Positions 3,850 to 50,089 of a stretch of 64,000 bases of DNA are shown piece by piece. Origin of the DNA: Malacoraja senta (taxonomy: Eukaryota); the NCBI GenBank assembly GCA_038087875.1, contig CM075987.1:16928001-16992000 (forward strand). Direction: 5' to 3'. The position numbers and the translations under genes are program-made. Numbering within the stretch: position 1 is the first letter of the stretch; the number at the start of each line of letters is the position of its first letter. Under the pieces are notes generated by a model that did not search any database, had not been told where the DNA came from, and saw nothing but the letters and a program-made list of their open reading frames with translations.

Positions 3850-6800
3850 TTGTGGAAGGTGCGACCTGTACAAAAAGGATGGGTTGCACTTGAACCTGAG
3901 GGGGACCAATATCCTGGCGGGGAGATTTGCAAAGGCTACTGGGGAGACTTTAAACTAGAACGGTTGGGGGGAGGGACTCAAATAGAGAAAGCTATTAGTC
4001 AGTATGTGAGGCAGGAGGCAGAGAAGGAAAGCACTCAGACCCAACATGTAGGGGGGAAAGAAGAAAACAATAATAAACAGAGAATAAGAGGTGGTGGGGT
4101 TCTTAAATGGGTGAGCAGAGAAACAGAGGAGTGTAAAATGCGGGCAGAAGCAATAGGTAGCAAGGTGAAAAGTAAAAGTGGCAGGCAGACAAATCCAGGA
4201 CAAAAATCAAAAAGGGCCACTTTTCAACATAATTGTAAAAGGGGTAAGAGCGTTGTAAAAACAAGCCTGAAGGCTTTGTGTCTCAATGCAAGGAGCATTC
4301 GTAATAAGGTGGATGAGTTGAATGTGCAGAATGCTATTAATGATTATGATATAGTTGGGATCACGGAGACATGGCTCCAGGGTGACCAAGGCTGGGAGCT
4401 GAACATCCAGGTATATTCAATATTCAGGAGGGATAGAGAGAAAGCAAAAGGAGGTGGGGTAGCGTTGCTGGTTAGAGAGGAGATTAACGCAGTGGAAAGG
4501 AAGGACATTAGCTTGGAGGATGTGGAATCGGTATGGGTAGAGCTGCGAAACACTAAGGGGCAGAAAACGCTGGTGGGTGTTGTGTACAGGCCACCTAACA
4601 GTAGTAGTGAAGTTGGGGATGGCATCAAACAGGAAATTAGAAATGCGTGCAACAAAGGCAAAACAGTTATAATAGGTGACTTCAATCTACATATAGATTG
4701 GGTGAATCAAATTGGCAGGGGTGCTGAAGAAGAGGATTTCTTGGAATGTATGCGGGATAGTTATCTAAACCAACATGTAGAGGAACCAACGAGAGAGCAG
4801 GCTATTCTAGACTGGGTATTGAGTAATGAGGAAGGGTTAGTTAGCAGTCTTGTTGTGCGTGCCCCCTTGGGCAAGAGTGACCATAATATGGTTGAGTTCT
4901 TCATTAGGATGGAGAGTGACATTGTTAATTCAGAAACAATGGTTCTGAACTTACAGAAAGGTAACTTTGAGGGTATGAGACGTGAATTGGCCAAGATTGA
5001 CTGGCAATTAGTTCTAAAAGGGTTGACGGTGGATATGCAATGGAAGGCATTTAAAGACTGCATGGATGAACTACAAAAATTGTTCTTCCCAGTTTGGGAA
5101 AAGAATAAATCAGGGAAGGTAGTGCATCCGTGGATAACAAGGGAAATCAGGGATAGTATCAAAGCAAAAGATGATGCGTACAAATTAGCCAGAAAAAGCA
5201 GCATACCAGAGGACTGGGAGAAATTCAGAGACCAGCAGAGGAGGACAAAGGGCTTAATTAGGAAAGGGAAAATAGATTATGAAAGAAAACTGGCAGGGAA
5301 CATAATAACTGACTGCAAAAGTTTTTATAGATATGTGAAGAGAAAGAGATTAGTTAAAACAAATGTAGGTCCCTTGCAGTCAGATACAGGTGAATTGATC
5401 ATGGGGAACAAGGATATGGCGGACCAATTGAATAACTACTTTGGTTCCGTCTTCACTAAGGAAGACATAAATTATCTGCCGGAAATAGCAGGGGACCGCG
5501 GGTCAAAAGAGATGGAGGAACTGAGTGAAATCCAGGTTAGTCGGGAAGTAGTGTTGGGTAAATTGAATGGATTAAAGGCTGATAAATCACCAGGGCCAGA
5601 TAGGCTGCATCCCAGAGTACTTAAGGAAGTAGCTCCAGAAATAGTGGATGCATTAGTGATAATTTTTCAAAACTCTTTAGATTCTGGAGTAGTTCCTGAG
5701 GATTGGAGGGTAGCAAACGTAACCCCAATTTTTAAGAAGGGAGGGAGAGAGAAAACGGGGAATTACTGACCAGTTAGTCTAACATCGGTAGTGGGGAAAC
5801 TGCTAGAGTCAGTTATTAAAGATGGGATAGCAGCACATTTGGAAAGTCGTGAAATCATTGGACAAAGTCAGCATGGATTTACAAAAGGTAAATCATGTCT
5901 GACGAATCTTATAGAATTTTTCGAGGATGTAACTAGTAGAGTGGATAGGGGAGAACCAGTGGATGTGTTGTATCTGGACTTTCAGAAGGCTTTCGACAAG
6001 GTCCCACATAAGAGATTAATATACAAACTTAAAGCACACGGTATTGGGGGTTCAGTATTGATGTGGATAGAGAACTGGCTGGCAAACAGGAAGCAAAGAG
6101 TAGGAGTAAATGGGTCCTTTTCACAATGGCCGGCAGTGACTAGTGGGGTACCACAAGGCTCAGTGCTGGGACCCCAGCTATTTACAATTTATATTAATGA
6201 ACTGGATGTGGGAATTGAAGGCAACATCTCCAAGTTTGCGGATGACACTAAGCTGGGGGGCAGTGTTAGCTGTGAGGAGGATGCTAGGGGACTGCAAGGT
6301 GACTTAGATAGGCTGGGTGAGTGGGCAAATGTTTGGCAGGTGCAGTATAATGTGGATAAATGTGAGGTTATCCACTTTGGTGGCAAAAACAGGAAAGCAG
6401 ACTATTATCTAAATGGTGGCCGATTAGGAAAAGGGGAGATGCAGCGAGACCTGGGTGTCATGGTACACCAGTCATTGAAAGTAGGCAGGTACACAAAAAT
6501 GCTGGAGAAACTCAGCGGATGCAGCAGCATCTATGGAGCGAAGGAAATAGGTAACGTTTCGGGCCGAAACCCTTCTAACCCTTGAAAGTAGGCATGCAGG
6601 TGCAGCAGGCAGTGAAGAAAGCGAATGGTATGTTAGCTTTCATACCAAAAGGATTTGAGTATAGGAGCTGGGAGGTTCTACTGCAGTTGTACAGGGTCTT
6701 GGTGAGACCACACCTGGAGTATTGCGTACAGTTTTGGTCTCCAAATCTGAGGAAGGACATTATAGCCATAGCGGGAGTGCAGAGAAGGTTCACCAGACTG

Positions 6801-7273
6801 ATTCCTGGGATGTCAGGACTTTCATATGAAGAAAGACTGGATAGACTCGGCTTATACTTGCTAGAATTTAGGAGATTGAGAGGGGATCTTATAGAAACTT
6901 ACAAGATTCTTATGGGGTTGGACAGGCTAGATGCAGGAAGATTGTTCCCGATGTTGGGGAAGTCCAGGACAAGGGGTCACAGGTTAAGGATAAGGGGGAA
7001 ATCCTTTAAGACTGAGATGAGAAAAAACTTTTTCACACAGAGAGTGGTGAATCTCTGGAACTCTCTGCCACAGAGGGTAGTTGAGGCCAGTTCATTGGCT
7101 ATATTTAAGAGGGTGTTAGATGTGGCCCTTGTGGCTAAAGGGATCAGGGGGTATGGAGAGAAGGCAGGTACGGGATACTGAGTTGGATGATCAGCCATGA
7201 TCATATTGAATGGCGGTGCAGGCTCGAAGGGCCGAATGGCCTACTCCTGCACCTATTTTCTATGTATCTATGT
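3850..7273 (+). mobile_element. CR1 LINE 'A', 5'-truncated (end of ORF1 + complete ORF2 APE-EN/RT + 3' tail); inactivated by a stop at 5767-5769 and an insertion at 6488-6581
   Basis: APE motifs 'ITETWL', 'GDFN' and 'SDH'. RT motifs '[10 protein letters not shown]' and 'FADD'. Short-repeat tail ttctatgtatctatgt. Confidence 0.95.
6488..6581 (-). mobile_element. 94-bp Penelope-terminal-repeat-derived insertion with 13-bp TSD
   Basis: TSD ttgaaagtaggca at 6475-6487 and 6582-6594. The empty site is present in the duplicated copy near 22935-22950. Confidence 0.85.
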
Positions 7274-9489
7274 AAGTACCCTGGGATGCAGACCATCAGG
7301 CCCTGGGGATTTATCAGCCTTCAGTCCCATCAGTCTATCCAACACCATTTCCTGCCTAATGTGGATTTCCTTCAGTTCCTCCGTCACCCCAGATCCTCTG
7401 GCCACTACTATATCAGGAAGATTGTTTGTGTCCTCCTTTGTGAAGACGGATCCAAAGTACCTGTTCAACTCATCTGCCATTTCCTTGTTCCCCATAATAA
7501 ATTCACCTGTCTTCAAGGGACCCACATTTGTCTTAACTATTGTTTACCTCTTCACATACCTAAAGAAGCTTTTACTATCCTCCTTTATATTCTTGGCTAG
7601 CTTACCTTCGTACCTTATCTTTTCTCCCCTTATTGCCTTTTTAGTTATTTTCTGTTGCTCTTTAAAAGTTTCCCAATCCTCTGGCTTCCCGCTCATCTTT
7701 GCTATGTTATACTTCTTCTCTTTTATTTTTATACTGTCCCTGACTTCCCTTGTCAGCCACAGTTGCCTCTTACTCCCCTTAGAATCCTTCTTCCTCTTTG
7801 GAATTAACTGATCCTGCACCTTCTGTATTATTCCCAGAAATACCTGCCATTGTTGTTCCACTGTCATCCCTGCTAGGGTCTCTTTCCAGTCAACTTTGGC
7901 CAGCTCCTCCCTCATGGCTTCATAGTCCCCTTTGCTCAACTGTAATACCGACACTTGCGATGTTTCCTTCTCCCTCTCACTCATTTGCCAGCTTTCTCAC
8001 TCCTACTACAATTAGTCTGAAGAAGGGTCCTGACACCAAAACCTATCCTACCCATGGCCAAAAGCCTGGCAAATGATAGGTGGATACAGGTGAGGGAGGT
8101 TTGATTGGCAGATAGGTGGACAAAGTCAGCAGATGAAGAGAAGACAAAAGGGTGACATAAGGAGAGGAGAGGAGTCACATATCCATGCTCTCCAGCGATG
8201 CTGCCTGGCCCGCTGAGTTCCTACAGCACTCTGTGTGTGGACAATATTAGATGCATTGGGTGTGGACAGGGCACCCCTGGGCCATTTTCTTCTTGCCGAA
8301 TGAGTGCTGGTGTTGTAACTGTGCTGGAACAGCTTGGCTCGAGGCATGGCCGTCTGAAGTTGAGACTGTTGTCTGGTCCCATAGTCACTGCTGGATTCAA
8401 TACCAGGTCCCAATATTATGTGAAGCAAATCTATAATGGTGGGATATATCTGTGATGGTGGCGATCCCAAAAAGAATCTGGGGTCAATGTTTTATTTTTA
8501 ACATGAATATAAAAGCTTCAATAAAAATAGAAGCATTGCAAATGTTCCTCAGCTCAGCAACAGTTGTGGAGACGATGATCTTCCAGCATATCCAGAAGTT
8601 CAAAAAGATCAAGTTTTAAGATGAAAGCAAGAGATGGTGTCGAGGGAACAAAGGGAAGGCCAATGACAAGGTGGACTAAGAAAGACTAAATTATGCAAAT
8701 ATCAGTGCTGTCAGGGTAGTGAAGACTCATGACCTACAGATTACTAATTAAATTCACGACAGGGCTTAGATGGCAGGGCCCTGGAGGATATTGTGAAACA
8801 GAGACACCTAGGGGTATGGATTTCTCTGAATGTGGCGACACAACTGGACAGGGTGGTGACAAAGGCACACTTGCCTCCATCGGTCAGGACACTGATAAAA
8901 GCGTTGGGACGTCATGATACAACTGTACAAGGCATTGTTGACATTACAGGGTTGGAGCTACACAGCACTGAAACAGTGCTGATCTAGTCCTAGGACATTG
9001 GGAGGGGATGAGCCTTTTGGGACCAGTGACCACTATCAGGTTTAAGATACTTATGGATATAGACAAGGCGGGCCCACGAGTTACAATTCTAAATTGGGGC
9101 AAGGCCAACTTTGAAGTTATTCGACAGGAACTCACTCAAGTTGATTGGAGCAGGTCTTCTGAAGGAAAAGGAGCGTCAGGAAAGTGGGATGTTTGTTTAA
9201 AAGTGTGACAAGAGTTCAGGGCATGCATGTCCCTGTTAGAGTGAAAGGCAAAGCAGGTGGGCATATGGAGGCTTGGATAAGGAGAGAAATTGAGGCTCTG
9301 GCCAAGAATAAATAGGAGGCATGGGACAGATTCAGGCCGCTGGGTTTTTGTATCCCTGGAGGAGTTTCGGGGAAAAAAGAAGCACATTTAAAAAAGGAAA
9401 TCAGGAGGAAAACAAGGAGATTGCTCTGGCAGATAATATTAAAGATAATCCCAAAAAATGCTATGAACACATTAAGGGAAAAAGAGAAG

Positions 9490-10078
9490 GTGAACACAAA
9501 ATGCTTGAGTAACTTCACGGGACAGTCAGCATCTCTGGATAGAAGTAAGTAGTCATGTTTCGGGTCAAAACCCTTCAGACTGAGAGTCAGGGTGGAGGAA
9601 GACACGGATATAAGGAAGGGAAACGTGTGAAAACGAAACATCAAAAGAGATAGAGCTCAAGGAAAATGTAGAATAGATCATTGTTAGCTAGGAGAAGGTG
9701 AAAACAAAGCAAACAGAGACAAAATGTAGTCGGGGTCAGTCCGACTGGTCGGAGAACTAGGATGGGCGAGGGATGGAGAGAGAGGGAAAGCAAGGGTTAC
9801 TTTAAGTTAGAGAAGTCAGTATTCTACTGCTGGGGTGTAAGCTGCCCAAGCGAAAGATGAGGTGCTGTTCCTCCAATTTACGCTGGGCATCACTCTGAAT
9901 GGAGGAAGCCCAAGGCAGAAAGGTCGGTGTGGGAATGGGAGGGGGAGTTTAAGTGTTTAGCAACCGGCAGATTAGGTAGGTTTAGGCAGGCTGAGCAGAG
10001 GTGTTCAGCGAAACGATCACCGAGCCTGCGCTTGGACTCACCGATATACAAGAGTCCACACCTGGAACAGCAGGAATC
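9490..10078 (-). mobile_element. Penelope-like element 3' fragment (GIY-YIG endonuclease + terminal repeat)
   Basis: 'CSRCGLLYIGESKRRLGDRFAEH…PVAKHLNSPSH…QRKLEEQHLIFRLGSL' is a PLE GIY-YIG domain, followed by terminal-repeat sequence with a degenerate hammerhead core. Confidence 0.85.
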
Positions 10079-10109
10079 AAAGCGGTCGACTATGAGGTTT
10101 AAGATAGTT

Positions 10110-13100
10110 ATAGAAACATAGAAACATAGAAAATAGGTGCAGGAGTAGGCTATTCGGCCCTTCGAGTCTGCACCGCCATTCAATATGATCATGGCTGATC
10201 ATCCAACTCAGTATCCTGTACCTGCTTTCTCTCCATACCCCCTGATCCCTTTAGCCACAAGGGCCACATCTAACTCCCTCTTAAATATAGCCAATGAACT
10301 GGCCTCAACTACCTTCTGTGGCAGAGAATTCCAGAGATTCACCACTCTCTGTGTGAAAAATGTTTTCCTCATCTCGGTCCTAAAAGATTTCCCCCTTATC
10401 CTTAAACTGTGACCCCTTGTTATGGACCTCCCCAACATCGGGAACAATCTTCCTGCATCTAGCCTGTCCAACCCCTTAAGAATTTTGTACGTTTCTATAA
10501 GATCCCCCCTCAATCTTCTAAATTCTAGCGAGTACAAACCGAGTCTATCCAGTCTTTCTTCATATGAAAGTCCTGACATCCCAGGAATCAGTCTGGTGAA
10601 CCTTCTCTGTACTCCCTCTATGGCAAGAATGTCTTTCCTCAGATTAGGAGACCAAAACTGTACGCAATACTCCAGGTGTGGTCTCACCAAGACCCTGTAC
10701 AACTGCAGTAGAACCTCCCTGCTCCTATACTCAAATCCTTTTGCTATGAATGCTAACATACCATTCGCCTTCTTCACTGCCTGCTGCACCTGCATGCCTA
10801 CTGTTAATGACTGGTGTACCATGACACCCAGGTCTCGTTTCATCTCCCCTTTTCCTAATCGGTCACCATTCAGATAATAGTCTACTTTCCTGTTTTGCCA
10901 CCAAAGTGGATAACCTCACATTTATCCACATTATACTGCATCTGCCATGCATTTGCCCACTCACCCAGCCTATCCAAGTCACCTTGCAGCCTCCGAGCAT
11001 CCTCCTCACAGCTAATACTGCCCCCCAGCTTCGTGTCATCCGCAAACTTTGAGATGTTGCATTCAATTCCCTCGTCCAAATCATTAATATATATGGTAAA
11101 TAGCTGGGGTCCCAGCACTGAGCCTTGCGGTACCCCACTAGTCACTGCCTGCCATTCTGAAAAGAACCCGTTAACTCCTACTCTTTGCTTCCTGTCTGCC
11201 AGCAGTTCTCTATCCACATCAATACTGAACCCCCAATACCGTGTGCTTTAAGTTTGTATACTAATCTCTTATGTGGGACTTTGTCGAAAGCCTTCTGAAA
11301 GTCCAGATATAACACATCCACTGGTTCTCCCCTATCCACTCTACTAGTTACATCCTCGAAAAATTCTATAAGATTCGTCAGACATGATTTACCTTTCGTA
11401 AATCCATGCTGACTTTGTCCAATGATTTCACCACTTTCCAAATGTGCTGCTATCCCATCTTTAATAACTGACTCTAGCAGTTTCCCCACTACCGATGTTA
11501 GACTAACTGGTCTGTAATTCCCCGTTTTCTCTCTCCCTCCCTTCTTAAAAAGTGGGGTTACTTTTGCTACCCTACAATCCTCAGGAACTACTCCAGAATC
11601 TAAAGAGTTTTGAAAAATTATCACTAATGCATCCACTATTTCTGGGGCTACTTCCTTAAGTACTCTGGGATGCAGCCTATCTGGCCCTGGGGATTTATCG
11701 GCCTTTAATCCATTCAATTTACCTAACACCACTTCCCGGCTAACCTGGATTTCACTCAGTTCCTCCATCTCATTGGACCCCCGGTCCCCTGCTATTTCCG
11801 GCAAATTATTTATGTCTTCCTTAGTGAAGACAGAACCAAAGTAGTTATTCAATTGGTCTGCCATGTCCTTGTTCCCCATGATCAATTCACCTGTTTCTGA
11901 CTGCAAGGGACCTACATTTGTTTTAACTAATCCTTTGCTCTTCACATATCTATAAAAGCTTTTGCAGTCAGTTTTTATGTTCCCTGCCAGTTTTCTTTCA
12001 TAATCTATTTTCCCTTTCCTAATTAAGCCCTTTGTCCTCCTCTGCTGGACTCTGAATTTCTCCCAGTCCTCGGGGAGGCTGCCTTTTCTGGCTAATTTGT
12101 ACGCTTCATCTTTTGTTTTGATACTATCTCTGATTTCCTTGTTATCCATGGATGCACTACCTTCCCTGATTATTTTTTTTTGCCAAACTGGGATGAACAA
12201 TTGTTGTATTTCATCCATGCAGTCTTTAAATGCCTTCCATTGCATATCTACCGTCAACCCATTAAGAATCAATTGCCAGTCTATCTTGGCCAATTCACTT
12301 CTCATACCCTCAAAGTTACCTTTCTTTAAGTTCAGGAACCTTGTTTCTGAATTAACAATGTCACTCTCCATCCTAATGAAGAACTCAACCATATTATGGT
12401 CACTCTTGCCCAAGGGACCACGCACAACAAGACTGCTAACTAACCCTTCCTCATTACTCAATACCCAATCTAGAATAGCCTGCTCTCTCGTTGGTTCCTC
12501 TACATGTTGGTTTAGAAAACTATCCCGCATACATTCCAAGAAATCCTCTTCCTCAGCACCCTTGCCAATTTGATTCACCCAACCTATATGTAGATTGAAG
12601 TCACCCATTATAACTGTTTTACCTTTGTTGCACGCATTTCTAATTTCCTGTTTGATGCCATCCCCAACTCCACTACTACTGTTAGGTGGCCTGTACACAA
12701 CTCCCACTAGTGTTTTCTGCCCCTTAGTGTTTCGCAGCTCTACCCATATTTGAGTATAGGAGCAGGGAGGTTCTACTGCAGTTGTACAGGGTCTTGGTGA
12801 GACCACACCTGGAGTATTGCGTACAGTTTTGGTCTCCAAATCTGAGGAAGGACATTATAGCCATAGAGGGAGTGCAGAGAAGGTTCACCAGACTGATTCC
12901 TGGGATGTCAGGACTTTCATATGAAGAAAGACTGGATAGACTTGGCTTATACTCGCTAGAATTTAGGAGATTGAGAGGGGATCTTATAGAAACGTACAAA
13001 ATTCTTATGGGGTTGGACAGGCTAGATGCAGGAAGATTGTTCCCGATGTTGGGGAAGTCCAGGACAAGGGGTCACAGCTTAAGGATAAGGGGGAAATCCT

Positions 13101-14456
13101 TTAAGACCGAGATGAGGAAAAACTTTTTCACACAGAGAGTGGTGAATCTCTGGAACTCTCTGCCACAGAGGGTAGTTGAGGCCAGTTCATTGGCTATATT
13201 TAAGAGGGAATTAGATGTGGCCCTTGTGGCTAAAGGGATCAGGGGGTATGGAGAGAAGGCAGGTACGGGATACTGAGTTGAATGATCAGCCATGATCGTA
13301 TTGAATGGCGGTGCAGGCTCGAAGGGGCGAATGGCCTACTCCTGCACCTATTTTCTATGTATCTATGTATCTATATCGATTCCACATCCTCCAAGCTAAT
13401 GTCCTTCATTTCTATTGCGTTAATCTGCTCTCTAACCAGCAACACTACCCCACCTCCTTTCCCTTTCTGTCTATCCCTCCTGAATATTGAATATCCCTGG
13501 ATGTTCAGCTCCCAGCCTTGGTTACTCTGGAGCCATGTCTCCGTGATCCCAACTATATCATAGTCATTAATAGCTATCTGCACATTCAACTCATCCACCT
13601 TATTACGAATGCTCCTTGCATTGAGACACAAAACCTTCAGGCTTGTTTTTACAACACTCTTACCCCTTATACAATTATGTAGAAAAGTGGCCCTTTTTGA
13701 TTTTTGCCCTGGATTTGTCTGCCTGCCACTTTTACTTTTCACCTTGCTACCTATTGCTTCTACCCTCATTTTACACCCCTCTGTCTCTACGCTCACACAT
13801 TTAAGAAACCCTTTCCCTTTAACTCCATCCTCAACTATCCCATTCGACACCCCACCCCCCTTATTCAGTTTAAAACCACCCGTGTAGCAGTGGCAAACCT
13901 GCCTGCCAGAATGCTGGTCCCCCACCTGTTAAGATGCAATCCGTCCCTTTTGTACAGTTCCCTTTTACTCCAAAACAGATCCCAGTGATCTAAGAATCTA
14001 AATCCCTGCCCCGTGCACCAGTTCCTCAGCCACACATTCAGGTCCCGTATCTCCCTGTTCCTGCTCTCGCCAGCACGAGGAACTGGAAGCAAACCGGAGA
14101 TAACAACCCTGGAGGTCCTGCTTTTCAGCATTTTTCCGAGCTCTCTAAACTCACGCTGCAGAATATTCATACCCTTCTTTCCGACATCGTTTGTGCCGAC
14201 ATGCACTACCACTTCCGGCTATTCACCTTCGCCCTTGAGGATTTTCTGCACTCTGTCCGTGACATCCTGGATCCTGGCACCAGGAAGGCAGCACACCATC
14301 CTCGAATCCCGTCTGTTGCCGCAGAAACCCCTGTCCGTACCTCTCACAGTGGAGTCTCCCACTACAATGGCGTTGCCTGACTTTGGCCTTTTTGGTTTTG
14401 GCTCAACAGCCCTATTCGCATCGCAAGCCAGTCTGCCGCTCAGTGTTAAAACGTCT
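10110..14456 (-). mobile_element. CR1 LINE 'B' (ORF1 esterase part + ORF2 + tail), frameshifted and interrupted
   Basis: ORF1 SGNH-esterase motifs 'GDS', 'HVGTND' and 'DGLHLN'. ORF2 EN/RT motifs present. (tttctatg)n tail at ~10110-10130. Confidence 0.95.
12750..13372 (+). mobile_element. 5'-truncated CR1 inserted antisense into CR1-B (left arm only)
   Basis: RT C-terminus and tail. 4-bp TSD atat (12746-12749, 13373-13376). Empty site gaatcgatatgggtag at ~17331-17346. Confidence 0.9.
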
Positions 14457-16465: not shown

Positions 16466-19418
16466 CCTTCAAAGACCCTATCCATAACAAGCGAGTGGAT
16501 GACCTCAGGTTTGACCTCGACAAGTCCTACAGTAAGATTGTTACACCTAAGGTACTGGAAGAGAGAAGGTGGGAGACAGTGAGAAAGGGAGGGAAGCATG
16601 GAATGAAAACGTCCCCGGGTGTTGTACCTCTTGTGAACAGGTTCGCCCACTTAGAAGCTGTCGGGACAGAAGACGTTTTAACACTGAGCGGCAGACTGGC
16701 TTGCGATGCGAATAGGGCTGTTGAGCCAAAACCAAAAAGGCCAAAGTCAGGCAACGCCATTGTAGTGGGAGACTCCATTGTGAGAGGTACGGACAGGGGT
16801 TTCTGCGGCAACAGACGGGATTCGAGGATGGTGTGCTGCCTTCCTGGTGCCAGGATCCAGGATGTCACGGACAGAGTGCAGAAAATCCTCAAGGGCGAAG
16901 GTGAACAGCCGGAACTGGTAGTGCATGTCGGCACAAACCATGTCGGAAAGAAGGGGATGAATATTCTGCAGTGTGAGTTTAGAGAGCTCGGAAAAATGCT
17001 GAAAAGCAGGACCTCCAAGGTTGTTATCTCCGGTTTGCTTCCAGTTCCTCGTGCTGGCGAGAGCAGGAACAGGGAGATACGGGACCTGAATGTGTGGCTG
17101 AGGAACTGGTGCACGGGGATGAGTTGAATGTGCAGATAGCTATTAATGACTATGATATAGTTGGGATCACGGAGACATGGCTCCAGAGTAACCAAGGCTG
17201 GGAGCTGAACATCCAGGGATATTCAATATTCAGGAGGGATAGACAGAAAGGGAAAGGAGGTGGGGTAGTGTTGCTGGTTAGAGAGCAGATTAACGCAATA
17301 GAAATGAAGGACATTAGCTTGGAGGATGTGGAATCGATATGGGTAGAGCTGCGAAACACTGAGGGGCAGAAAACACTAGTGGGAGTTGTGTACAGGCCAC
17401 CTAACAGTAGTAGTGGAGTTGGGGATGGCATCAAACAGGAAATTAGAAATGCGTGCAACAAAGGTAAAACAGTTATAATGGGTGACTTCAATCTACATAT
17501 AGGTTGGGTGAATCAAATTGGCAAGGGTGCTGAGGAAGAGGATTTCTTGGAATGTATGCGGGATAGTTTTCTAAACCAACATGTAGAGGAACCAACGAGA
17601 GAGCAGGCTATTCTAGATTGGGTATTGAGTAATGAGGAAGGGTTAGTTAGCAGTCTTGTTGTGCGTGGTCCCTTGGGCAAGAGTGACCATAATATGGTTG
17701 AGTTCTTCATTAGGATGGAGAGTGACATTGTTAATTCAGAAACAAGGTTCCTGAACTTAAAGAAAGGTAACTTTGAGGGTATGAGAAGTGAATTGGCCAA
17801 GATAGACTGGCAATTGATTCTTAATGGGTTGACGGTAGATATGCAATGGAAGGCATTTAAAGACTGCATGGATGAAATACAACAATTGTTCATCCCAGTT
17901 TGGCAAAAAAAATAATCAGGGAAGGTAGTGCATCCATGGATAACGAGGGAAATCAGAGATAGTATCAAAACAAAAGATGAAGCGTACAAATTAGCCAGAA
18001 AAGGCAGCCTACCAGAGGACTGGGAGAAATTCAGAGTCCAGCAGAGGAGGACAAAGGGCTTAATTAGGAAAGGGAAAATAGATTATGAAAGAAAACTGGC
18101 AGGGAACATAAAAACTGACTGCAAAAGCTTTTATAGATATGTGAAGAGCAAAGGATTAGTTAAAACAAATGTAGGTCCCTTGCAGTCAGAAACAGGTGAA
18201 TTGATCATGGGGAACAAGGACATGGCAGACCAATTGAATAACTACTTTGGTTCTGTCTTCACTAAGGAAGACATAAATAATTTGCCGGAAATAGCAGGGG
18301 ACCGGGGGTCAAATGAGATGGAGGAACTGAGTGAAATCCAGGTTAGCCGGGAAGTGGTGTTAGGTAAATTGAATGGATTAAAGGCCGATAAATCCCCAGG
18401 GCCAGATAGGCTGCATCCCAGAGTACTTAAGGAAGTAGCCCCAGAAATAGTGGATGCATTAGTGATAATTTTTCAAAACTCTTTAGATTCTGGAGTAGTT
18501 CCTGAGGATTGTAGGGTAGCAAAAGTAACCCCACTTTTTAAGAAGGGAGGGAGAGAGAAAACAGGGAATTACAGACCAGTTAGTCTAACATCGGTAGTGG
18601 GGAAACTGCTAGAGTCAGTTATTAAAGATGGGATAGCAGCACATTTGGAAAGTGGTGAAATCATTGGACAAAGTCAGCATGGATTTACGAAAGGTAAATC
18701 ATGTCTGACGAATCTTATAGAATTTTTCGAGGATGTAACTAGTAGAGTGGATAGGGGAGAACCAGTGGATGTGTTATATCTGGACTTTCAGAAGGCTTTC
18801 GACAAAGTCCCACATAAGAGATTAGTATACAAACTTAAAGCACACGGTATTGGGGGTTCAGTATTGCTGCCTTGAGTTGCTGCCTTAAAGCACCACAGAC
18901 CCAGATTTGATCCTGACTATGGGTGCTGTCTGTACAGAATTTGTACATTCTCCCTATGACTTTCATATGAAGAAAGACTGGATAGACTCGGTTTGTACTC
19001 GCTAGAATTTAGAAGATTGAGGGGGGATCTTATAGAAACGTACAAAATTCTTAAGGGGTTGGACAGGCTAGATGCAGGAAGATTGTTCCCGATGTTGGGG
19101 AAGTCCATAACAAGGGGTCACAGTTTAAGGATAAGGGGGAAATCTTTTAGGACCGAGATGAGGAAAACATTTTTCACACAGAGAGTGGTGAATCTCTGGA
19201 ATTCTCTGCCACAGAAGGTAGTTGAGGCCAGTTCACTGGCTATATTTAAGAGGGAGTTAGATGTGGCCCTTGTGGCTAAAGGGATCAGGGGGTATGGAGA
19301 GAAAGCAGGTACAGGATACTGAGTTGGATGAGCAGCCATGATCATATTGAATGGCGGTGCAGACTTGAAGGGCCGAATAGCCTACTCCTGCACCTATTTT
19401 CTATGTTTCTATGTTTCT
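16465..19418 (+). mobile_element. CR1-B duplicate with longer ORF1, a 414-bp deletion of the ORF1/ORF2 junction and a 647-bp RT deletion
   Basis: Direct comparison with 10110-14456. Confidence 0.92.
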
Positions 19419-19451
19419 ATAACTATCTTAAACCTCATAGTCGACCGCTTT

Positions 19452-20040
19452 GATTCCTGCTGTTCCAGGTGTGGACTCTTGTATATCGGTGAGTCCAAGC
19501 GCAGGCTCGGTGATCGTTTCGCTGAACACCTCTGCTCAGCCTGCCTAAACCTACCTAATCTGCCGGTTGCTAAACACTTAAACTCCCCCTCCCATTCCCA
19601 CACCGACCTTTCTGCCTTGGGCTTCCTCCATTCAGAGTGATGCCCAGCGTAAATTGGAGGAACAGCACCTCATCTTTCGCTTGGGCAGCTTACACCCCAG
19701 CAGTAGAATACTGACTTCTCTAACTTAAAGTAACCCTTGCTTTCCCTCTCTCTCCATCCCTCGCCCATCCTAGTTCTCCGACCAGTCGGACTGACCCCGA
19801 CTACATTTTGTCTCTGTTTGCTTTGTTTTCACCTTCTCCTAGCTAACAATGATCTATTCTACATTTTCCTTGAGCTCTATCTCTTTTGATGTTTCGTTTT
19901 CACACGTTTCCCTTCCTTATATCCGTGTCTTCCTCCACCCTGACTCTCAGTCTGAAGGGTTTTGACCCGAAACATGACTACTTACTTCTATCCAGAGATG
20001 CTGACTGTCCCGTGAAGTTACTCAAGCATTTTGTGTTCAC
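19452..20040 (+). mobile_element. Duplicate Penelope-like GIY-YIG fragment (right arm)
   Basis: Mirror of 9490-10078. Confidence 0.85.
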
Positions 20041-21549
20041 CTTCTCTTTTTCCCTTAATGTGTTCATAGCATTTTTTGGGATTATCTTTAATATTATCTG
20101 CCAGAGCAATCTCCTTGTTTTCCTCCTGATTTCCTTTTTTAAATGTGCTTCTTTTTTCCCCGAAACTCCTCCAGGGATACAAAAACCCAGCGGCCTGAAT
20201 CTGTCCCATGCCTCCTATTTATTCTTGGCCAGAGCCTCAATTTCTCTCCTTATCCAAGCCTCCATATGCCCACCTGCTTTGCCTTTCACTCTAACAGGGA
20301 CATGCATGCCCTGAACTCTTGTCACACTTTTAAACAAACATCCCACTTTCCTGACGCTCCTTTTCCTTCAGAAGACCTGCTCCAATCAACTTGAGTGAGT
20401 TCCTGTCGAATAACTTCAAAGTTGGCCTTGCCCCAATTTAGAATTGTAACTCGTGGGCCCGCCTTGTCTATATCCATAAGTATCTTAAACCTGATAGTGG
20501 TCACTGGTCCCAAAAGGCTCATCCCCTCCCAATGTCCTAGGACTAGATCAGCACTGTTTCAGTGCTGTGTAGCTCCAACCCTGTAATGTCAACAATGCCT
20601 TGTACAGTTGTATCATGACGTCCCAACGCTTTTATCAGTGTCCTGACCGATGGAGGCAAGTGTGCCTTTGTCACCACCCTGTCCAGTTGTGTCGCCACAT
20701 TCAGAGAAATCCATACCCCTAGGTGTCTCTGTTTCACAATATCCTCCAGGGCCCTGCCATCTAAGCCCTGTCGTGAATTTAATTAGTAATCTGTAGGTCA
20801 TGAGTCTTCACTACCCTGACAGCACTGATATTTGCATAATTTAGTCTTTCTTAGTCCACCTTGTCATTGGCCTTCCCTTTGTTCCCTCGACACCATCTCT
20901 TGCTTTCATCTTAAAACTTGATCTTTTTGAACTTCTGGATATGCTGGAAGATCATCGTCTCCACAACTGTTGCTGAGCTGAGGAACATTTGCAATGCTTC
21001 TATTTTTATTGAAGCTTTTATATTCATGTTAAAAATAAAACATTGACCCCAGATTCTTTTTGGGATCGCCACCATCACAGATATATCCCACCATTATAGA
21101 TTTGCTTCACATAATATTGGGACCTGGTATTGAATCCAGCAGTGACTATGGGACCAGACAACAGTCTCAACTTCAGACGGCCATGCCTCGAGCCAAGCTG
21201 TTCCAGCACAGTTACAACACCAGCACTCATTCGGCAAGAAGAAAATGGCCCAGGGGTGCCCTGTCCACACCCAATGCATCTAATATTGTCCACACACAGA
21301 GTGCTGTAGGAACTCAGCGGGCCAGGCAGCATCGCTGGAGAGCATGGATATGTGACTCCTCTCCTCTCCTTATGTCACCCTTTTGTCTTCTCTTCATCTG
21401 CTGACTTTGTCCACCTATCTGCCAATCAAACCTCCCTCACCTGTATCCACCTATCATTTGCCAGGCTTTTGGCCATGGGTAGGATAGGTTTTGGTGTCAG
21501 GACCCTTCTTCAGACTAATTGTAGTAGGAGTGAGAAAGCTGGCAAATGA

Positions 21550-23480
21550 GTGAGAGGGAGAAGGAAACATCGCAAGTGTCGGTATTACAGTTGAGCAAAG
21601 GGGACTATGAAGCCATGAGGGAGGAGCTGGCCAAAGTTGACTGGAAAGAGACCCTAGCAGGGATGACAGTGGAACAACAATGGCAGGTATTTCTGGGAAT
21701 AATACAGAAGGTGCAGGATCAGTTAATTCCAAAGAGGAAGAAGGATTCTAAGGGGAGTAAGAGGCAACTGTGGCTGACAAGGGAAGTCAGGGACAGTATA
21801 AAAATAAAAGAGAAGAAGTATAACATAGCAAAGATGAGCGGGAAGCCAGAGGATTGGGAAACTTTTAAAGAGCAACAGAAAATAACTAAAAAGGCAATAA
21901 GGGGAGAAAAGATAAGGTACGAAGGTAAGCTAGCCAAGAATATAAAGGAGGATAGTAAAAGCTTCTTTAGGTATGTGAAGAGGTAAACAATAGTTAAGAC
22001 AAATGTGGGTCCCTTGAAGACAGGTGAATTTATTATGGGGAACAAGGAAATGGCAGATGAGTTGAACAGGTACTTTGGATCCGTCTTCACAAAGGAGGAC
22101 ACAAACAATCTTCCTGATATAGTAGTGGCCAGAGGATCTGGGGTGACGGAGGAACTGAAGGAAATCCACATTAGGCAGGAAATGGTGTTGGATAGACTGA
22201 TGGGACTGAAGGCTGATAAATCCCCAGGGCCTGATGGTCTGCATCCCAGGGTACTTACATAGATACATAGAAAATAGGTGCAGGAGTAGGCCATTCGGCC
22301 CTTCGAGCCTGCACCGCCATTCAATATGATCATGGCTGATCATCCAACTCAGTATCCCGTACCTGCCTTCTCTCCATACCCCCTGATCCCTTTAGCCACA
22401 AGGGCCACATCTAACACCCTCTTAAATATAGCCAATGAACTGGCCTCAACTACCCTCTGTGGCAGAGAGTTCCAGAGATTCACCACTCTCTGTGTGAAAA
22501 AGTTTTTTCTCATCTCAGTCTTAAAGGATTTCCCCCTTATCCTTAACCTGTGACCCCTTGTCCTGGACTTCCCCAACATCGGGAACAATCTTCCTGCATC
22601 TAGCCTGTCCAACCCCATAAGAATCTTGTAAGTTTCTATAAGATCCCCTCTCAATCTCCTAAATTCTAGCAAGTATAAGCCGAGTCTATCCAGTCTTTCT
22701 TCATATGAAAGTCCTGACATCCCAGGAATCAGTCTGGTGAACCTTCTCTGCACTCCCGCTATGGCTATAATGTCCTTCCTCAGATTTGGAGACCAAAACT
22801 GTACGCAATACTCCAGGTGTGGTCTCACCAAGACCCTGTACAACTGCAGTAGAACCTCCCAGCTCCTATACTCAAATCCTTTTGGTATGAAAGCTAACAT
22901 ACCATTCGCTTTCTTCACTGCCTGCTGCACCTGCATGCCTACTTTCAATGACTGGTGTACCATGACACCCAGGTCTCGCTGCATCTCCCCTTTTCCTAAT
23001 CGGCCACCATTTAGATAATAGTCTGCTTTCCTGTTTTTGCCACCAAAGTGGATAACCTCACATTTATCCATATTATACTGCATCTGCCAAACATTTGCCC
23101 ACTCACCCAGCCTATCTAAGTCACCTTGCAGTCCCCTAGCATCCTCCTCACAGCTAACACTGCCCCCCAGCTTAGTGTCATCCGCAAACTTGGAGATGTT
23201 GCCTTCAATTCCCTCATCCAGTTCATTAATATAAATTGTAAATAGCTGGGGTCCCAGCACTGAGCCTTGCGGTACCCCACTAGTCACTGCCGGCCATTGT
23301 GAAAAGAACCCATTTACTCCTACTCTTTGCTTCCTGTTTGCCAGCCAGTTCTCTATCCACATCAATACTGAACCCCCAATACCGTGTGCTTTAAGTTTGT
23401 ATATTAATCTCTTATGTGGGACCTTGTCGAAAACCTTCTGAAAGTCCAGATACAACACATCCACTGGTTCTCCCCTATCC
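21550..23480. mobile_element. Duplicates of the host CR1 (21550-22256, +) and the CR1-A 3' half (22257-23480, -)
   Basis: Mirror of 5943-7980. Uninterrupted RT C-terminal frame from ~23480 to 22349. Confidence 0.92.
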
Positions 23481-24186: not shown

Positions 24187-24864
24187 GTAAGGAGACAGGT
24201 CTGATGATAATGTGGACTTCAGTCATCCTAACATAGAATGGGGCTGGCGGGGGGGGGGGGGGGAGGGGGGTGTGGGCAGGAGGGTGGGTGGAGAGATGAG
24301 AAGTAGTTCCTGAAATGCACACAAGAAAGCTTCTTGATCGCTACATGTCCTTCCCAACAAGAACAGTTGTGGTCTGGATATGGTTCTGAAGAAAGAAATC
24401 AATGATTGTGGATCACAATGTCATTAGGTTTAGAATAGTTATGGAAAAGGTCAGAAGTCTAAGGTATTGAGGGAGACTGCATTGGAGGAGTGCTGCTGTC
24501 GGGGTTCGAATGCGTGAATTGAAGCAGCAATAAATAAGCACTGGCAGGCCGTTAAGGAGATGATGCAGAGACTGGTAATGCACACATCGATGTTCGACAC
24601 AGCAAAGGATATTGACATAGCTTTAGATGCTTCGTTGAGCAATAAAAGACCTAAGAAACAGTAACTATTGCACATCTAAATATTAAAAGGATAAACAAGG
24701 AAACAGTGTGGCAAATAATGGACCGAATGATCATCTTAGGAAAGGTACGAGACATGGTTGAGATAATAAACGAGGAGTTTTCACCTTTTTGTCATTGGAT
24801 GAGAGAATGCTGCAAATATCACAATAAAATTGGATTGAATAAAAATAAGGAAAAGGTAACGAGC

Positions 24865-25989: not shown

Positions 25990-27350
25990 GGATCCCACTC
26001 CCCTGTCACTCTAGTTTAACTCATCCCATGTAGCACTAGTGAACCTCCCTGCAAGGATATTGATTCCCCTTCAGTTCTGGTGCAACCCATTCCTCTTATA
26101 CAGGTCACCTCTGCCCCAGAAGACATCCCAATGGTCCAAAAATTTGAGGCCCTGCCTCTTGCACCAACTCCTCACCCATGCTTTGCTCTGTCCTATCCTC
26201 TTCCTACTAGAATTGGCAGCAGGAGCAATCTAGAGATGACTATCCTTGATCCTGCTTTTTAACCATTTATATATCTTCCTGTATTCACTCTGCCAGCTCT
26301 CAGCACTTTTCACACCTATGTAATTTGTGCAAATGCACAATGACACTGGCTCCTCACCCTTCCCCCTTGAGAATGTTCTATGGCAACTTGGAGACTTGCT
26401 GGATCCTGCACCAGGGACACAACACAACGCCATGTTTGCTGCCATAGAATCTCCCGCCTGGCACCCTAAATAATGGGTCTCCTATCACTATCACTCTGCC
26501 TGGCCATGCCTCAGAATCAGGCCCGACGCCACAGGCCTGACTGCTGCCATCACCGGACAGGGCATTCCCTCCACCAGTATCCAAATAGGTAGGGCTGTTG
26601 TCAAGAGGAATGGTCACAGGGGATTCCTGCACACGCTGCCTATTTCCATTCCTGGTGGTTGCCCATCTACACCCTCCCTGCAACAAGAGCATGACCACCG
26701 TTATTGGCAGAGCACTGCCTGACGGCACCAGTAACCCAGGTTCAATCCTAACTGGATGCTTCGCATGTTCCCCCTGAAGTCAGGTGGGCTTTCCTTCAGG
26801 TGCTTTGGTTTCCTCCCACGTCCCAGGTTAATTGGCCTCTGTAAATGGCCCCTAATATGTAGGGAGTGGATGAGCAAGGGGATAACATAGAACAAGTGTA
26901 AATAGGTGATTGATGGTCGGTGTGGACTCGGTAGGCTAAAGGCCTGTTTCCATGCTGTCTCCTTAAACTAAACTAAAATCTCACAGGACCTCTTAGCTAT
27001 GACACTCTCACGTCGTTGGCTGAGCCTGAGGTCAGCCCGTAGCAGTTCTAGTTCCCTAATGCCGTCTGTAAGGAGCGGCAGCCAGATGCACTTCCCACCG
27101 TAGTGCACAAGGACACGGACTGTCTTCCAAACCCCACATCCTGCAGGAGGAGCAGTGCACCATTCTACCTGCCATCTCTACTGCACTGACCACTAATACA
27201 CTGAGAAAAATTATAGACACAAAAACAACCTGTCGTCACCCTCTGCTCAACCACCTCGCCAAAGCCTCAACACTTACCTTCAAACGCAGCAGTTCACCTC
27301 TACGCACAGCCACTCCCAAAGCAGCTGTTCCCAAGTCTCAACACAGCTAC
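25990..27350 (-). mobile_element. Degraded CR1 5'UTR + ORF1 with a SINE insertion (~26700-26980)
   Basis: Remnants 'VIGDPL' and 'CCVPGA', Cys-rich N-terminus, degenerate gagttaaactag at the ORF1 end. Confidence 0.65.
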
Positions 27351-49248: not shown

Positions 49249-50089
49249 CCGCATTGATGAGCTGGAGACCCAACTTCATACGCTGCGGTGCATCAGGGAG
49301 GGGGAGTATTACCTGGATGTTTTGTGCCAGGGGATGGTCACACCGACCAGTTTAACTAATTCAGTAGTTAGTGAGCAGGGAAAGGAAGGTGTGGCCATAA
49401 GCGAGGCAGGTAGGGGGAACCAGGAGGAGATGCGGCAGGAGCCACAGCCCTTGTCCCTGACGAGCATGACCGAGGCTCTTACTCAATGCGAGGACGGGAT
49501 CAAGGGCTGTGGGAGGGATGAGCAACCTGGCTGCAGCACCGTGGATCAGGGGGCCATTCAAGAGGGGGGAGTTAGAAGAAATGCCGTTGTGATAGGGGAT
49601 AGTATTATTCGGGGGGTAGATAAGGTTCTCTGCGGCCAGCAGAACATGTCCCGAAGGCTGTGTTGCCTACCCGGTGCTAGGGTTAAGGATATCTCTGCGA
49701 TGCTGGAGAGAAATTTGCAGAGTGAGGGGGAGGATCCAGTGGTCGTGGTCCATGTGGGGACCAATGACATAGGAAGGACGAGGAAGGAGGATCTGCTGAA
49801 CGAGTTTGAGCAGTTAGGGAATAAATTAAAAAGCAGAACCTCGAGGGTACTGATCTCCGGATTGCTACCTGAGCCACGGGCCAAATCGGCGAGGGTACAA
49901 AAAATTAAAAAGCTGAATGCGTGGCTCAAAGACTGGTGTGGGAAAAATGGGTTTGGTTTCTTGGGCCACTGGCACCAGTACTGGGACAGGGGGGATCTGT
50001 TCTGTAAGGACGGACTTCACCTGAACGGTGCTGGGACTGGGGTCCTGGCAAATCATATAACTAGGGCAGTAGAGAGGTCTTTAAACTAA
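49249..50089 (+). CDS. CR1 ORF1 (partial; coiled coil + SGNH esterase domain)
   Basis: 'VIGDSIIR', 'CLPGA', 'HVGTNDI' and 'DGLHLN'. No internal stops. Confidence 0.88.

What the first reader, a model, noticed from the sequence alone, without database searches (positions are those of the whole stretch)
13760..13880. Third CR1 subfamily (minus strand) with the same slip site
Seen on the - strand: GTT TTA AAC TGA (plus-strand 13874-13868, stop 13867-13865). The -1 frame reads GGFKLNKGGGVSNG… and is open into ORF2, followed 7 nt after the heptamer by GGGGGGTGGGG…GGG. Three elements use three different stops (TAG/TGA/TAA) and three different preceding codons (ACT/GTT/TCT), all ending in T. A degenerate fourth case (gagttaaactag) sits at ~26010.
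Basis: partly seen in the sequence, partly recalled or inferred. Interest (0 to 1): 0.7.

Follow-up and report, generated by a model that had tools for sequence, protein, structure and literature searches.

The report
Conserved frameshift site in CR1 elements
A very abundant family of jumping genes in this cartilaginous-fish genome ends its first gene on a classic ribosome-slipping signal that opens straight into its second gene, so these elements probably make their copying enzyme as a fusion protein, much as retroviruses do.

Summary
On the minus strand, ORF1 (an SGNH esterase-type protein) of a dead, 5'-truncated CR1-type LINE ends GTT TTA AAC TGA (heptamer 13874-13868). ORF2 (endonuclease and reverse transcriptase) is open in the -1 frame across that site.

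Comparison shows it is not chance. In 10 diverged subfamily representatives (nine from this genome, one unrelated metagenome contig), T_TTA_AAC plus the T of the stop are eight invariant columns. All 3 third-codon positions inside the heptamer are invariant, against 1 of 25 upstream. The heptamer-to-endonuclease linker has eight different lengths (102-333 nt). All are multiples of three, with no stop in the -1 frame. In two subfamilies the overlap of the two frames is one codon plus the heptamer. One subfamily and the outside contig have no AUG before the endonuclease domain.

Of 161 esterase-ORF1 relatives (sharks, rays, coelacanth, turtle), 100 end in Leu-Asn. The residue before it is compatible with a T-ending codon in 99 of those 100.

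Best reading (about 0.7): a programmed -1 ribosomal frameshift that makes an ORF1-ORF2 fusion.

No downstream RNA structure was found. The proposed G-quadruplex is not predicted for this element, although a G-run is conserved. Ten literature searches found no report.

The parts
13868..13874 (-). Slippery heptamer T_TTA_AAC. The zero frame reads GT[T TTA AAC]; the -1 frame reads TTT AAA C.
   Evidence: Invariant in 10 of 10 subfamily representatives.
13865..13867 (-). ORF1 stop codon TGA, directly after the heptamer.
   Evidence: The other subfamilies have TAG or TAA at the same place. The variant 13866 C>T (TGA to TAA) appears in contigs of 2 of the 4 runs laid.
13850..13860 (-). G-run GGGGGGTGGGG, starting 7 nt after the heptamer. 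It encodes Gly-Gly-Gly in the -1 frame.
   Evidence: A run of 5-7 G lies 7-11 nt downstream in 8 of the 9 representatives compared; L039 has only GGG.
13865..14455 (-). Remnant of ORF1 (SGNH/GDSL esterase domain). It is 5'-truncated at query residue 113 and has an internal stop at 14219-14221.
13371..13928 (-). Open -1 frame. It covers 18 codons of overlap with ORF1, then a linker, then the start of the endonuclease domain. An in-frame ATG lies at 13769-13767.
12749..13374 (+). Nested 3' fragment of another CR1 copy that interrupts ORF2. It ends in the tail TTTCTATGTATCTATGTATCTAT.
10220..12746 (-). The rest of ORF2 (reverse transcriptase and C-terminal part), broken into three frames.
10110..10136 (-). 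3' tail of the element: 8-nt repeats (TTTCTATG) x3.5 on the minus strand.
3949..3958 (+). The same signal in subfamily A: AC[T TTA AAC] TAG.
50080..50089 (+). The same signal in subfamily C: TC[T TTA AAC] TAA. The -1 frame 50065-53073 is open for 1002 codons.
26009..26020 (-). Decayed ORF1 end, GAG TTA AAC TAG. The first heptamer base is G, not T.

Best explanation
The site is the ORF1/ORF2 junction of a CR1-type LINE, and the T_TTA_AAC-stop motif is a programmed -1 ribosomal frameshift signal of the whole family.

Proposed mechanism. Most ribosomes decode UUA (Leu) and AAC (Asn), meet the stop and release ORF1p, a zinc-knuckle, coiled-coil and SGNH-esterase protein of about 308 aa. A minority slip back one base, so that the tRNAs re-pair on UUU and AAA. 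They then read CUR and continue through a Gly-rich linker into the endonuclease and reverse transcriptase. The product is an ORF1p-ORF2p fusion at low stoichiometry, analogous to Gag-Pol.

What is shown and what is inferred. Shown: the anatomy and its conservation. Inferred: that slippage happens, its efficiency, and the roles of the adjacent stop codon and the downstream G-run (pause, protein-binding site or quadruplex). The slip could occur during translocation. It could also occur after translocation, with the stop codon waiting in the A site.

The copy in the window is a dead relic. The signal is a property of the family.
For: 1. The heptamer fits X_XXY_YYZ in the ORF1 frame, and ORF2 is open in the -1 frame across it.

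2. Synonymous-site conservation. Ten diverged representatives were compared. Six were picked by an esterase motif that does not include the heptamer. The heptamer plus the T of the stop are 8 invariant columns. All 3 third-codon positions in the heptamer are invariant, against 1 of 25 upstream.

3. Linker length. The distance from heptamer to endonuclease anchor takes 8 values: 333, 330, 249, 201, 198, 195, 168 and 102 nt. All are multiples of 3. There are 0 stops in the -1 frame and 1-13 in each of the other frames. The 84-nt difference between subfamilies A and B lies upstream of the first in-frame AUG.

4. Frame overlap. The window in which a shift could work is one codon plus the heptamer in L033 and L034, and 5 codons in four others.

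5. No AUG. There is no AUG between heptamer and endonuclease motif in 4 of 4 copies of subfamily A', nor in L032, nor in the outside contig L051.

6. An independent lineage. L051 is a metagenome contig with 34% ORF1p identity. It has CAT TTA AAC TAG, a G-run, and the endonuclease in the -1 frame.

7. Protein level. Of 161 esterase-ORF1 relatives with a DGxH motif, 100 end in LN, at 8 different tail lengths. In the 24-sequence alignment L307 and N308 are invariant, beside residues I take to be the catalytic ones. The residue before LN takes 13 identities but lacks a T-ending codon in only 1 of 100. At the next two positions the figures are 34 of 100 and 35 of 100.

8. Public gene models. Two Hypanus sabinus models (P0039, P0266) and P0247 from another lineage run ...GFKL... 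or ...LFKL... from esterase into endonuclease. That is the -1 reading of TTTAAAC.

9. The family is young and large. The 301-nt query has at least 2016 candidates, and the 40 scored are 99-100% identical. Of 30 loci, 28 matched the junction motif, and 4 of those 28 have ORF1 (about 334 codons) and the -1 frame (558 codons, to the locus end) both open.

10. Contigs of 4 public runs under 4 organism labels show no other letter at 13868-13874 and no indel. Flanking sites vary, including the TGA-to-TAA change.
Against: - No downstream stem-loop or pseudoknot was found. In 33 folds (11 sequences, 3 lengths) z ranged from -1.95 to +1.72. Rfam gave nothing relevant. As I recall, a heptamer alone usually gives about 1% frameshifting or less.
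- Subfamilies A, B and C do have an in-frame AUG before the endonuclease domain, so separate initiation is possible there.
- Reviews say LINE ORF2 is reached by unconventional initiation in L1 and SART1 (passages of PMC2881922, PMC3894237 and PMC3708506).
- There is no RNA, ribosome or protein evidence.
- The sequences compared are related by descent, so the counts are not independent trials.
- Three of the ten representatives were found because of the heptamer.
- Conservation of Leu-Asn could in part act at the protein level.
Confidence: 0.7

Rival explanations
1. ORF2 is translated separately, by termination-reinitiation or internal or non-AUG initiation as described for L1 and SART1. On this view no ORF1-ORF2 fusion is made, and the heptamer is conserved for another reason, such as the Leu-Asn C-terminus of ORF1p or an RNA element that helps reinitiation.
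For: Subfamilies A, B and C keep one in-frame AUG 35 or more codons after the heptamer. Reviews describe ORF2 translation that depends on ORF1 translation, without frameshifting, in L1 and SART1 (passages of PMC2881922, PMC3894237 and PMC3708506). No stimulatory structure was found.
Against: - Separate initiation does not require ORF2 to stay in the -1 frame, nor the frame to stay open back to the heptamer. Yet 8 linker lengths are all multiples of 3, with 0 stops.
- Subfamily A' (4 of 4 copies), L032 and L051 have no AUG before the endonuclease motif.
- No AUG lies at or next to the stop.
- Synonymous positions of Leu, Asn and the preceding codon are invariant, which a protein-level constraint does not explain.
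Confidence: 0.17
2. The shared motif is inherited from a common ancestor and has no function. The open -1 frame simply reflects the youth of the copies.
For: All the subfamilies are related. The bare heptamer is not enriched in the window. Many copies are 99-100% identical.
Against: - The flanking synonymous sites have diverged, with 1 of 25 third positions invariant, while the heptamer has not.
- The linker has been remodelled by indels at least 7 times, always in multiples of three.
- The motif is present in a lineage with only 34% ORF1p identity.
- From the LN ending and the NNT rule it can be inferred in coelacanth and turtle relatives.
- The stop codon changes identity but not position.
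Confidence: 0.05
3. The frameshift is real, but its main purpose is not to make the ORF2 enzyme. It could, for example, make a minor regulatory ORF1p extension, while catalytic ORF2p comes from the internal AUG.
For: An in-frame AUG is present in A, B and C. The linker is Gly-rich and variable in length.
Against: Lineages without any AUG (A', L051) would have no other route to ORF2p. The -1 frame runs uninterrupted through endonuclease and reverse transcriptase: 1002 codons in the window's C element.
Confidence: 0.08

Closest known systems
Gag-Pol -1 frameshifting of retroviruses and LTR retrotransposons, including the domesticated PEG10 (G_GGA_AAC)
   Same: An X_XXY_YYZ heptamer lies at the end of the upstream structural or accessory ORF. 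The polymerase ORF is in the -1 frame. The expected product is a low-abundance fusion. PMC5009743 (passages) reports pol in the -1 frame in 28 of 51 animal LTR elements.
   Different: This is a non-LTR (LINE) element. ORF1p is an esterase-type protein, not Gag. No protease is evident to cut the fusion. No downstream pseudoknot or stem-loop was found.
Coronavirus ORF1a/1b frameshift signal (U_UUA_AAC plus pseudoknot; recalled, not tested here)
   Same: The heptamer is identical.
   Different: Coronaviruses rely on a three-stem or H-type pseudoknot 5-7 nt downstream, and the zero-frame stop is not adjacent to the heptamer. Here the stop is adjacent, and only a G-run follows.
Luteovirus-type sites in which the zero-frame stop directly follows the shift site (barley yellow dwarf virus G_GGU_UUU_UAG; recalled)
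   Same: A stop codon lies immediately 3' of the heptamer.
   Different: As I recall, the luteovirus signal depends on an adjacent structure and a long-distance base pairing. Nothing comparable was found here, and long-range pairing was not tested.
SART1 UAAUG translational coupling and human L1 unconventional termination/reinitiation
   Same: They solve the same problem: getting ribosomes from ORF1 to ORF2 on one LINE RNA. In both, ORF2 translation depends on ORF1 translation (PMC2881922 and PMC3894237 passages).
   Different: Those mechanisms start a new polypeptide. Here there is no start codon at the junction, and the reading frames are constrained as for a fusion.
HeT-A gag frameshift in Drosophila telomeric non-LTR elements (PMC5009743 passage)
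   Same: It is a frameshift needed in a non-LTR retrotransposon.
   Different: It lies within gag of an element that has no reverse transcriptase. It is not a junction between ORF1 and the polymerase ORF.

Membership tests
CR1-group LINE (canonical CR1) | ORF2 with an apurinic-type endonuclease followed by a reverse transcriptase | tested here: met
   Pfam Exo_endo_phos (2.1e-5), Exo_endo_phos_2 (2.7e-10) and RVT_1 (1.6e-14) in the -1 frame.
CR1-group LINE (canonical CR1) | Esterase-type (SGNH/GDSL) ORF1 | tested here: met
   Lipase_GDSL_2 at 7.9e-11, plus 90 homologues carrying the same Pfam domains. PMC13343379 (passages) says esterase ORF1 is the only ORF1 type in vertebrate CR1 and L2, and that chondrichthyan L2 lacks ORF1.
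CR1-group LINE (canonical CR1) | 3' end with short 8-nt repeats rather than poly-A (the hallmark is recalled) | tested here: met
   (TTTCTATG)n at 10110-10136 on the minus strand for this element, and at 53385-53400 for the C element.
CR1-group LINE (canonical CR1) | Placement of the reverse transcriptase inside the CR1 clade by phylogeny | not tested
Canonical eukaryotic -1 programmed ribosomal frameshift signal | An X_XXY_YYZ heptamer in the upstream frame | tested here: met
   T_TTA_AAC in the ORF1 frame in 10 of 10 representatives.
Canonical eukaryotic -1 programmed ribosomal frameshift signal | The downstream ORF is in the -1 frame, open across the site and lacks its own obligatory start | tested here: met
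   No AUG in A', L032 or L051. The overlap is as short as one codon.
Canonical eukaryotic -1 programmed ribosomal frameshift signal | A stimulatory RNA structure 5-9 nt downstream | tested here: not met
   No fold differs from shuffles. No Rfam family matches. A G-quadruplex is predicted in only 5 of 11 representatives. Pseudoknots, long-range pairing and protein-dependent stimulators were not testable.
Canonical eukaryotic -1 programmed ribosomal frameshift signal | Conservation of the signal among diverged relatives, beyond coding needs | tested here: met
Canonical eukaryotic -1 programmed ribosomal frameshift signal | A trans-frame product is observed | not testable with these tools
   No RNA holder was listed, and no proteomic or ribosome-profiling data were available.

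The most novel reading that the evidence does not exclude
Canonical CR1 LINEs, the dominant retrotransposons of most non-mammalian vertebrates, generally express their endonuclease and reverse transcriptase as an ORF1p-ORF2p fusion. They do so through a -1 frameshift at U_UUA_AAC-stop that has been kept from cartilaginous fishes to turtles. A sister class whose ORF1 ends in Gln-Gly-Asn may use G_GGA_AAC instead. The stimulator would be unconventional: the adjacent stop codon plus a downstream G-run, perhaps bound by a protein. This would be the first Gag-Pol-like recoding strategy described for a major LINE clade. It would also answer how CR1 ORF2 is translated.
Probability: 0.4. Interest if true: 0.85.

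Novelty: new variant of a known kind. Interest (0 to 1): 0.72.

Why it matters
How LINEs translate ORF2 from a bicistronic RNA is described in reviews as unclear or unconventional (PMC3708506, PMC3894237 and PMC2881922 passages). The 2016 recoding review lists no such case for CR1.

A conserved, canonical slip site at the ORF1 stop of CR1 elements would have three consequences:
- It would give that clade a defined and easily testable mechanism.
- It would imply a covalent ORF1p-ORF2p fusion, which bears on cis-preference and on how the ribonucleoprotein particle assembles.
- It would add a structure-less, stop-adjacent U_UUA_AAC signal with a conserved G-run to the list of eukaryotic frameshift sites.

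It also matters for annotation. Public gene models already read through this site (P0039, P0266).

Tried and rejected
- RNA evidence. The look-up of sequencing runs listed no RNA holder. The four runs laid are contigs of unknown molecule type. They say nothing about expression, strand or splicing.
- Downstream structure. MFE folds of 60, 100 and 140 nt for 11 representatives were not different from dinucleotide shuffles. Rfam at E<=1 gave only a sub-threshold mir-24 match.
- A long-range stem (ACGGUUGGG with CCCAACAUGU) appears in A-type copies only and has no covariation to test, so I did not pursue it.
- DNA from other collections. The metagenome scan gave 17 loci, of which only L051 is a CR1-type ORF1 with a readable ORF1/ORF2 junction. 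L056 is a decayed, frame-broken relative of unclear type (it keeps DGLHLN) that I did not resolve. The other 15 were not classified; from their tails I take them to be unrelated GDSL genes. Genome contigs (3 loci) and viral contigs (5 loci) gave low-identity matches (25-29%), which I did not open; I take them for bacterial or phage GDSL genes.
- Genome-wide count of motif plus heptamer. I used a 20-locus sample instead.
- The Gln-Gly-Asn class of ORF1 endings. A search for it in this genome returned only the same B and A subfamilies. Cluster look-up gave no organism names.
- The 'longer' protein search gave a single hit.
- Earlier findings of this scan: nothing relevant.
- Papers not held, so not seen: Kapitonov & Jurka 2003, Kojima 2005 and Khazina & Weichenrieder 2009. 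They could mention the frame overlap.
- TTTAAAC at 62605-62612 lies in a non-coding, SINE-like stretch upstream of a truncated CR1. I take it for a chance match.
Full report
WHAT IS AT THE COORDINATES

Read on the minus strand, the window has ...cgg gtg gtt tta aac tga ataa gggggg t gggg....
- The zero frame ends ...GRFATATRVVLN*, with the heptamer T_TTA_AAC at 13874-13868 and the stop at 13867-13865.
- The -1 frame is open from 13928. It reads ...GGFKLNKGGGVSNG... and continues into LNARSIRNKVDEL..ITETW, the start of an apurinic-type endonuclease.
- Pfam finds a GDSL/SGNH esterase in the zero-frame tail. In the -1 frame it finds Exo_endo_phos, Exo_endo_phos_2 and RVT_1.

So this is the ORF1/ORF2 junction of a LINE with an esterase-type ORF1.

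The element runs from about 14455 to about 10105 on the minus strand and ends in (TTTCTATG)n. It is a dead copy:
- ORF1 is 5'-truncated and has a stop at 14219-14221.
- ORF2 is split by a nested 3' fragment of another CR1 at 12749-13374.
- The rest of ORF2 lies in three frames.

The 'degenerate' GAG TTA AAC TAG at 26020-26009 is the end of an old ORF1 fragment.

IS IT MORE THAN CHANCE?

The count alone says no. TTTAAAC occurs 15 times against 10.1 expected. TTTAAACTRR occurs 3 times against 0.87 expected, and 2 of 100 shuffles reach 3. The case rests on position, frame and conservation.

THE FAMILY IN THIS GENOME

The window's genome (1.94 Gb) has at least 2016 candidate matches to the 301-nt junction. 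The 40 that were scored are 99-100% identical.

Of the 30 loci fetched, 28 matched the junction motif. In 4 of those 28, ORF1 (about 334 codons) and the -1 frame (558 codons, to the end of the locus) are both open. The full ORF1p is 308 aa: a Cys-rich N-terminus, a probable coiled coil and the esterase.

An esterase motif that does not include the heptamer (GAYGGNYTNCAYYTNAAYNNNNNNGGNAC) has 8817 matches, against 0 for the reversed control. From the first 100 listed I chose 20 for diversity of the motif.
- In 16 of the 20, TTTAAAC lies exactly 71 nt after the motif start.
- In 3 there is one substitution (L037, L042, L049).
- In 1 (L031) an upstream deletion moves it.
- All 20 have a stop codon right after it.
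- In 11 of the 20 the -1 frame is uninterrupted from the heptamer to the endonuclease anchor. The other 9 are decayed or truncated.

CONSERVATION BEYOND CODING NEEDS

I compared ten representatives: the three in the window, six from the motif sample, and one outside contig.
- Offsets 0 to 7 (the heptamer plus the T of the stop) are invariant in all ten. This is the longest invariant run in the 26-codon ORF1 tail.
- All three third-codon positions inside the heptamer are invariant. Only 1 of 25 upstream third positions is.
- The stop codon is TAG, TGA or TAA, always at the same place. Both changes keep a Leu codon (CTA or CTG) in the -1 frame.

THE FRAME CONSTRAINT

The distance from the heptamer to the endonuclease anchor (L/F/M-N-A/V/E-R/Q-S) is 333, 330, 249, 201, 198, 195, 168 or 102 nt, depending on the subfamily. 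That is eight lengths, all multiples of three. There is no stop in the -1 frame, and there are 1-13 stops in each other frame.

Four copies depart from this (332, 322, 196 and 136 nt). They sit beside intact relatives and look like post-insertion decay.

The -1 frame opens only one codon before TTT in L033 and L034 (TAG GGC TTT AAA C TAA). It opens five codons before TTT in four other representatives. In those lineages, a change of frame that joins the two ORFs can only happen at the heptamer.

No AUG lies between heptamer and endonuclease motif in subfamily A' (L036, L037, L046, L050; 4 of 4 copies), in L032, or in the outside contig. Subfamilies A, B and C do have one.

OTHER ORGANISMS

The closest named ORF1p is from the little skate (90% identity). 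Other hits come from sharks, rays, sawfish, coelacanth, a soft-shelled turtle, bichir and Xenopus. A profile search of 1.84 billion representatives gave 360 proteins at E<=1e-30; the best 150 were listed.

Of the 231 proteins in hand, 161 have the DGxH motif. Of those 161, 100 end in Leu-Asn, at eight different distances from DGxH (22-39 residues). In the 24-sequence alignment, L307 and N308 are among only 24 invariant columns; from memory of SGNH esterases I take the others to include the catalytic Ser, His, Gly and Asn.

The residue before Leu-Asn is variable, with 13 identities. Yet it is one without a T-ending codon (K, E, Q, M or W) in only 1 of 100. At the two preceding positions the figures are 34 of 100 and 35 of 100, and over the tail 11.8%. 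After collapsing to 77 unique tails the binomial P is 7e-4, with the caveat that the sequences are related. This is what a conserved T at heptamer position 1 predicts.

At the DNA level, the one CR1-type metagenome contig with a readable ORF1/ORF2 junction (L051, 34% ORF1p identity) has CAT TTA AAC TAG AAAGGAAGGGGGGAG. Its endonuclease is in the -1 frame and there is no Met.

Two public gene models of Hypanus sabinus (P0039, P0266) pass from esterase to endonuclease through ...GFKL... A fused ORF from a distant lineage (P0247) does so through ...LFKL... That is the -1 reading of TTTAAAC.

Contigs of four public runs under four organism labels cover the stretch. They show no other letter at 13868-13874 and no indel. 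They do vary at 13866 (TGA to TAA), 13879, 13881, 13892, 13845 and 13833. Whether these contigs are RNA is not known.

THE DOWNSTREAM ELEMENT

A run of 5-7 G starts 7-11 nt after the heptamer in 8 of the 9 representatives examined; L039 has only GGG. It is followed by (A/T)GGG in most. In the -1 frame it encodes Gly-Gly(-Gly/Glu).

No Watson-Crick fold of the next 60-140 nt differs from shuffles (z from -1.95 to +1.72, 33 folds). With the G-quadruplex model switched on, a quadruplex enters the minimum-energy fold within 100 nt in 5 of 11 representatives. It does not in the element of this finding. Rfam finds nothing.

The G-run itself is a conserved feature without an explanation. Candidates are a protein-binding site, a weak two-tier quadruplex, or simply a glycine linker.

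MECHANISM PROPOSED

Shown: a canonical heptamer in the ORF1 frame, an adjacent stop, and a -1 ORF2 whose frame and openness are conserved through many indels.

Inferred: a minority of ribosomes slip -1 on UUA-AAC. This could happen during translocation. It could also happen after it, while the stop codon waits in the A site. They then read CUR and continue into ORF2, giving an ORF1p-ORF2p fusion whose junction reads ...LN-L(N/E/S)..GG...

A low efficiency would suit an element that needs far less ORF2p than ORF1p. I put about 0.7 on this. The main rival is separate initiation of ORF2, as in L1 or SART1 (about 0.17). It does not explain the frame constraint or the AUG-less lineages.

WHAT IS KNOWN

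Ten full-text searches found no paper that links CR1 or other esterase-ORF1 LINEs with a slippery heptamer. I read passages, not whole texts:
- The 2016 recoding review has no 'CR1'. Among non-LTR elements it mentions only HeT-A, TART and L1 (PMC5009743).
- Two papers on non-LTR translation have no 'frameshift' (PMC3894237, PMC3708506).
- The 2010 review speaks of unconventional initiation (PMC2881922).
- The esterase structure paper has no 'frameshift' or 'overlap' (PMC3905857).
- The 2026 survey of CR1-group elements in 101 vertebrates has no 'frameshift', 'overlap', 'slippery' or 'stop codon' (PMC13343379).

Kapitonov & Jurka 2003, Kojima 2005 and Khazina & Weichenrieder 2009 are not held. 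Older subscription papers on chicken and turtle CR1 were not searchable. Prior notice of the overlap therefore cannot be excluded.

FAMILY MEMBERSHIP

The element meets the tested CR1 features: endonuclease plus reverse transcriptase, esterase ORF1, and an 8-nt repeat tail. According to PMC13343379 (passages), chondrichthyan L2 lacks ORF1, which favours canonical CR1. A reverse-transcriptase phylogeny was not done.

As a frameshift signal it meets the heptamer, frame and conservation criteria. It fails the 'downstream structure' criterion as far as that could be tested.

VERDICT

The slip-site interpretation is well supported by comparison but untested by experiment. The quadruplex part is not supported. 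This window copy is a relic, and the interest lies in the family-wide signal.

Noticed in passing
window 6582-10572 and 18958-22948: Two arms of 3991 nt are 100% complementary (an inverted duplication), with 8385 nt between them. The inner parts are also mirrored at 98-100%. However, the partner arm (16671-18869, +) lacks both the nested insertion and the stretch 13597-14008, so it has lost the ORF1/ORF2 junction. This is either a recent palindromic duplication or an assembly fold-back with later differences.
   Followed up: partly
window 16489-18509 (+): A CR1 copy in which ORF1 residue 261 is joined directly to ORF2 residue 94. The deletion removes the heptamer. It is the mirror partner of the element in this finding.
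   Followed up: partly
window 62300-62620 (-): A D-type CR1 ORF2 starts right at the G-run (gacggggggg agggattgac...). It is preceded by non-coding sequence of SINE-like appearance that carries a palindromic GTTTAAAC at 62605-62612. This heptamer is unrelated to any ORF1 end.
   Followed up: partly
proteins P0129, P0139, P0146, P0153, P0162, P0163, P0188, P0197 (unnamed metagenome-derived relatives): Among esterase-ORF1 relatives there is a second class of ending...Gln-Gly-Asn: 8 of the 61 that do not end in Leu-Asn. It would fit CAG GGA AAC, that is, the heptamer G_GGA_AAC (the PEG10 type, recalled). No DNA could be fetched to check this.
   Followed up: partly
proteins P0031, P0070, P0071, P0266, P0015: Several public gene models named after host genes contain CR1 ORF1 sequence: 40S ribosomal protein S24 isoform X2, transmembrane protein 204 isoforms, and hydroxyacid oxidase 2 isoform X1. 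A record labelled Pseudomonas aeruginosa SGNH/GDSL hydrolase is 55% identical to this ORF1p and ends in GLN, so it is probably a vertebrate contaminant contig.
   Followed up: no
window 24865-25111: A 30-nt tandem repeat, 8.2 copies, 98% matches. It lies next to a G-rich tract at 24240-24293.
   Followed up: no
window 50065-53073 (+): The C-subfamily element keeps a 1002-codon open -1 frame (full ORF2) in the window. Its ORF1 is broken upstream of 49232.
   Followed up: partly
L073 and L076 (own genome): Two B-type copies carry the same change in the heptamer, TTTAAAC to TTAAAAC. This puts a TAA stop two codons early. It may mark a small dead sub-lineage or a recurrent mutation.
   Followed up: no
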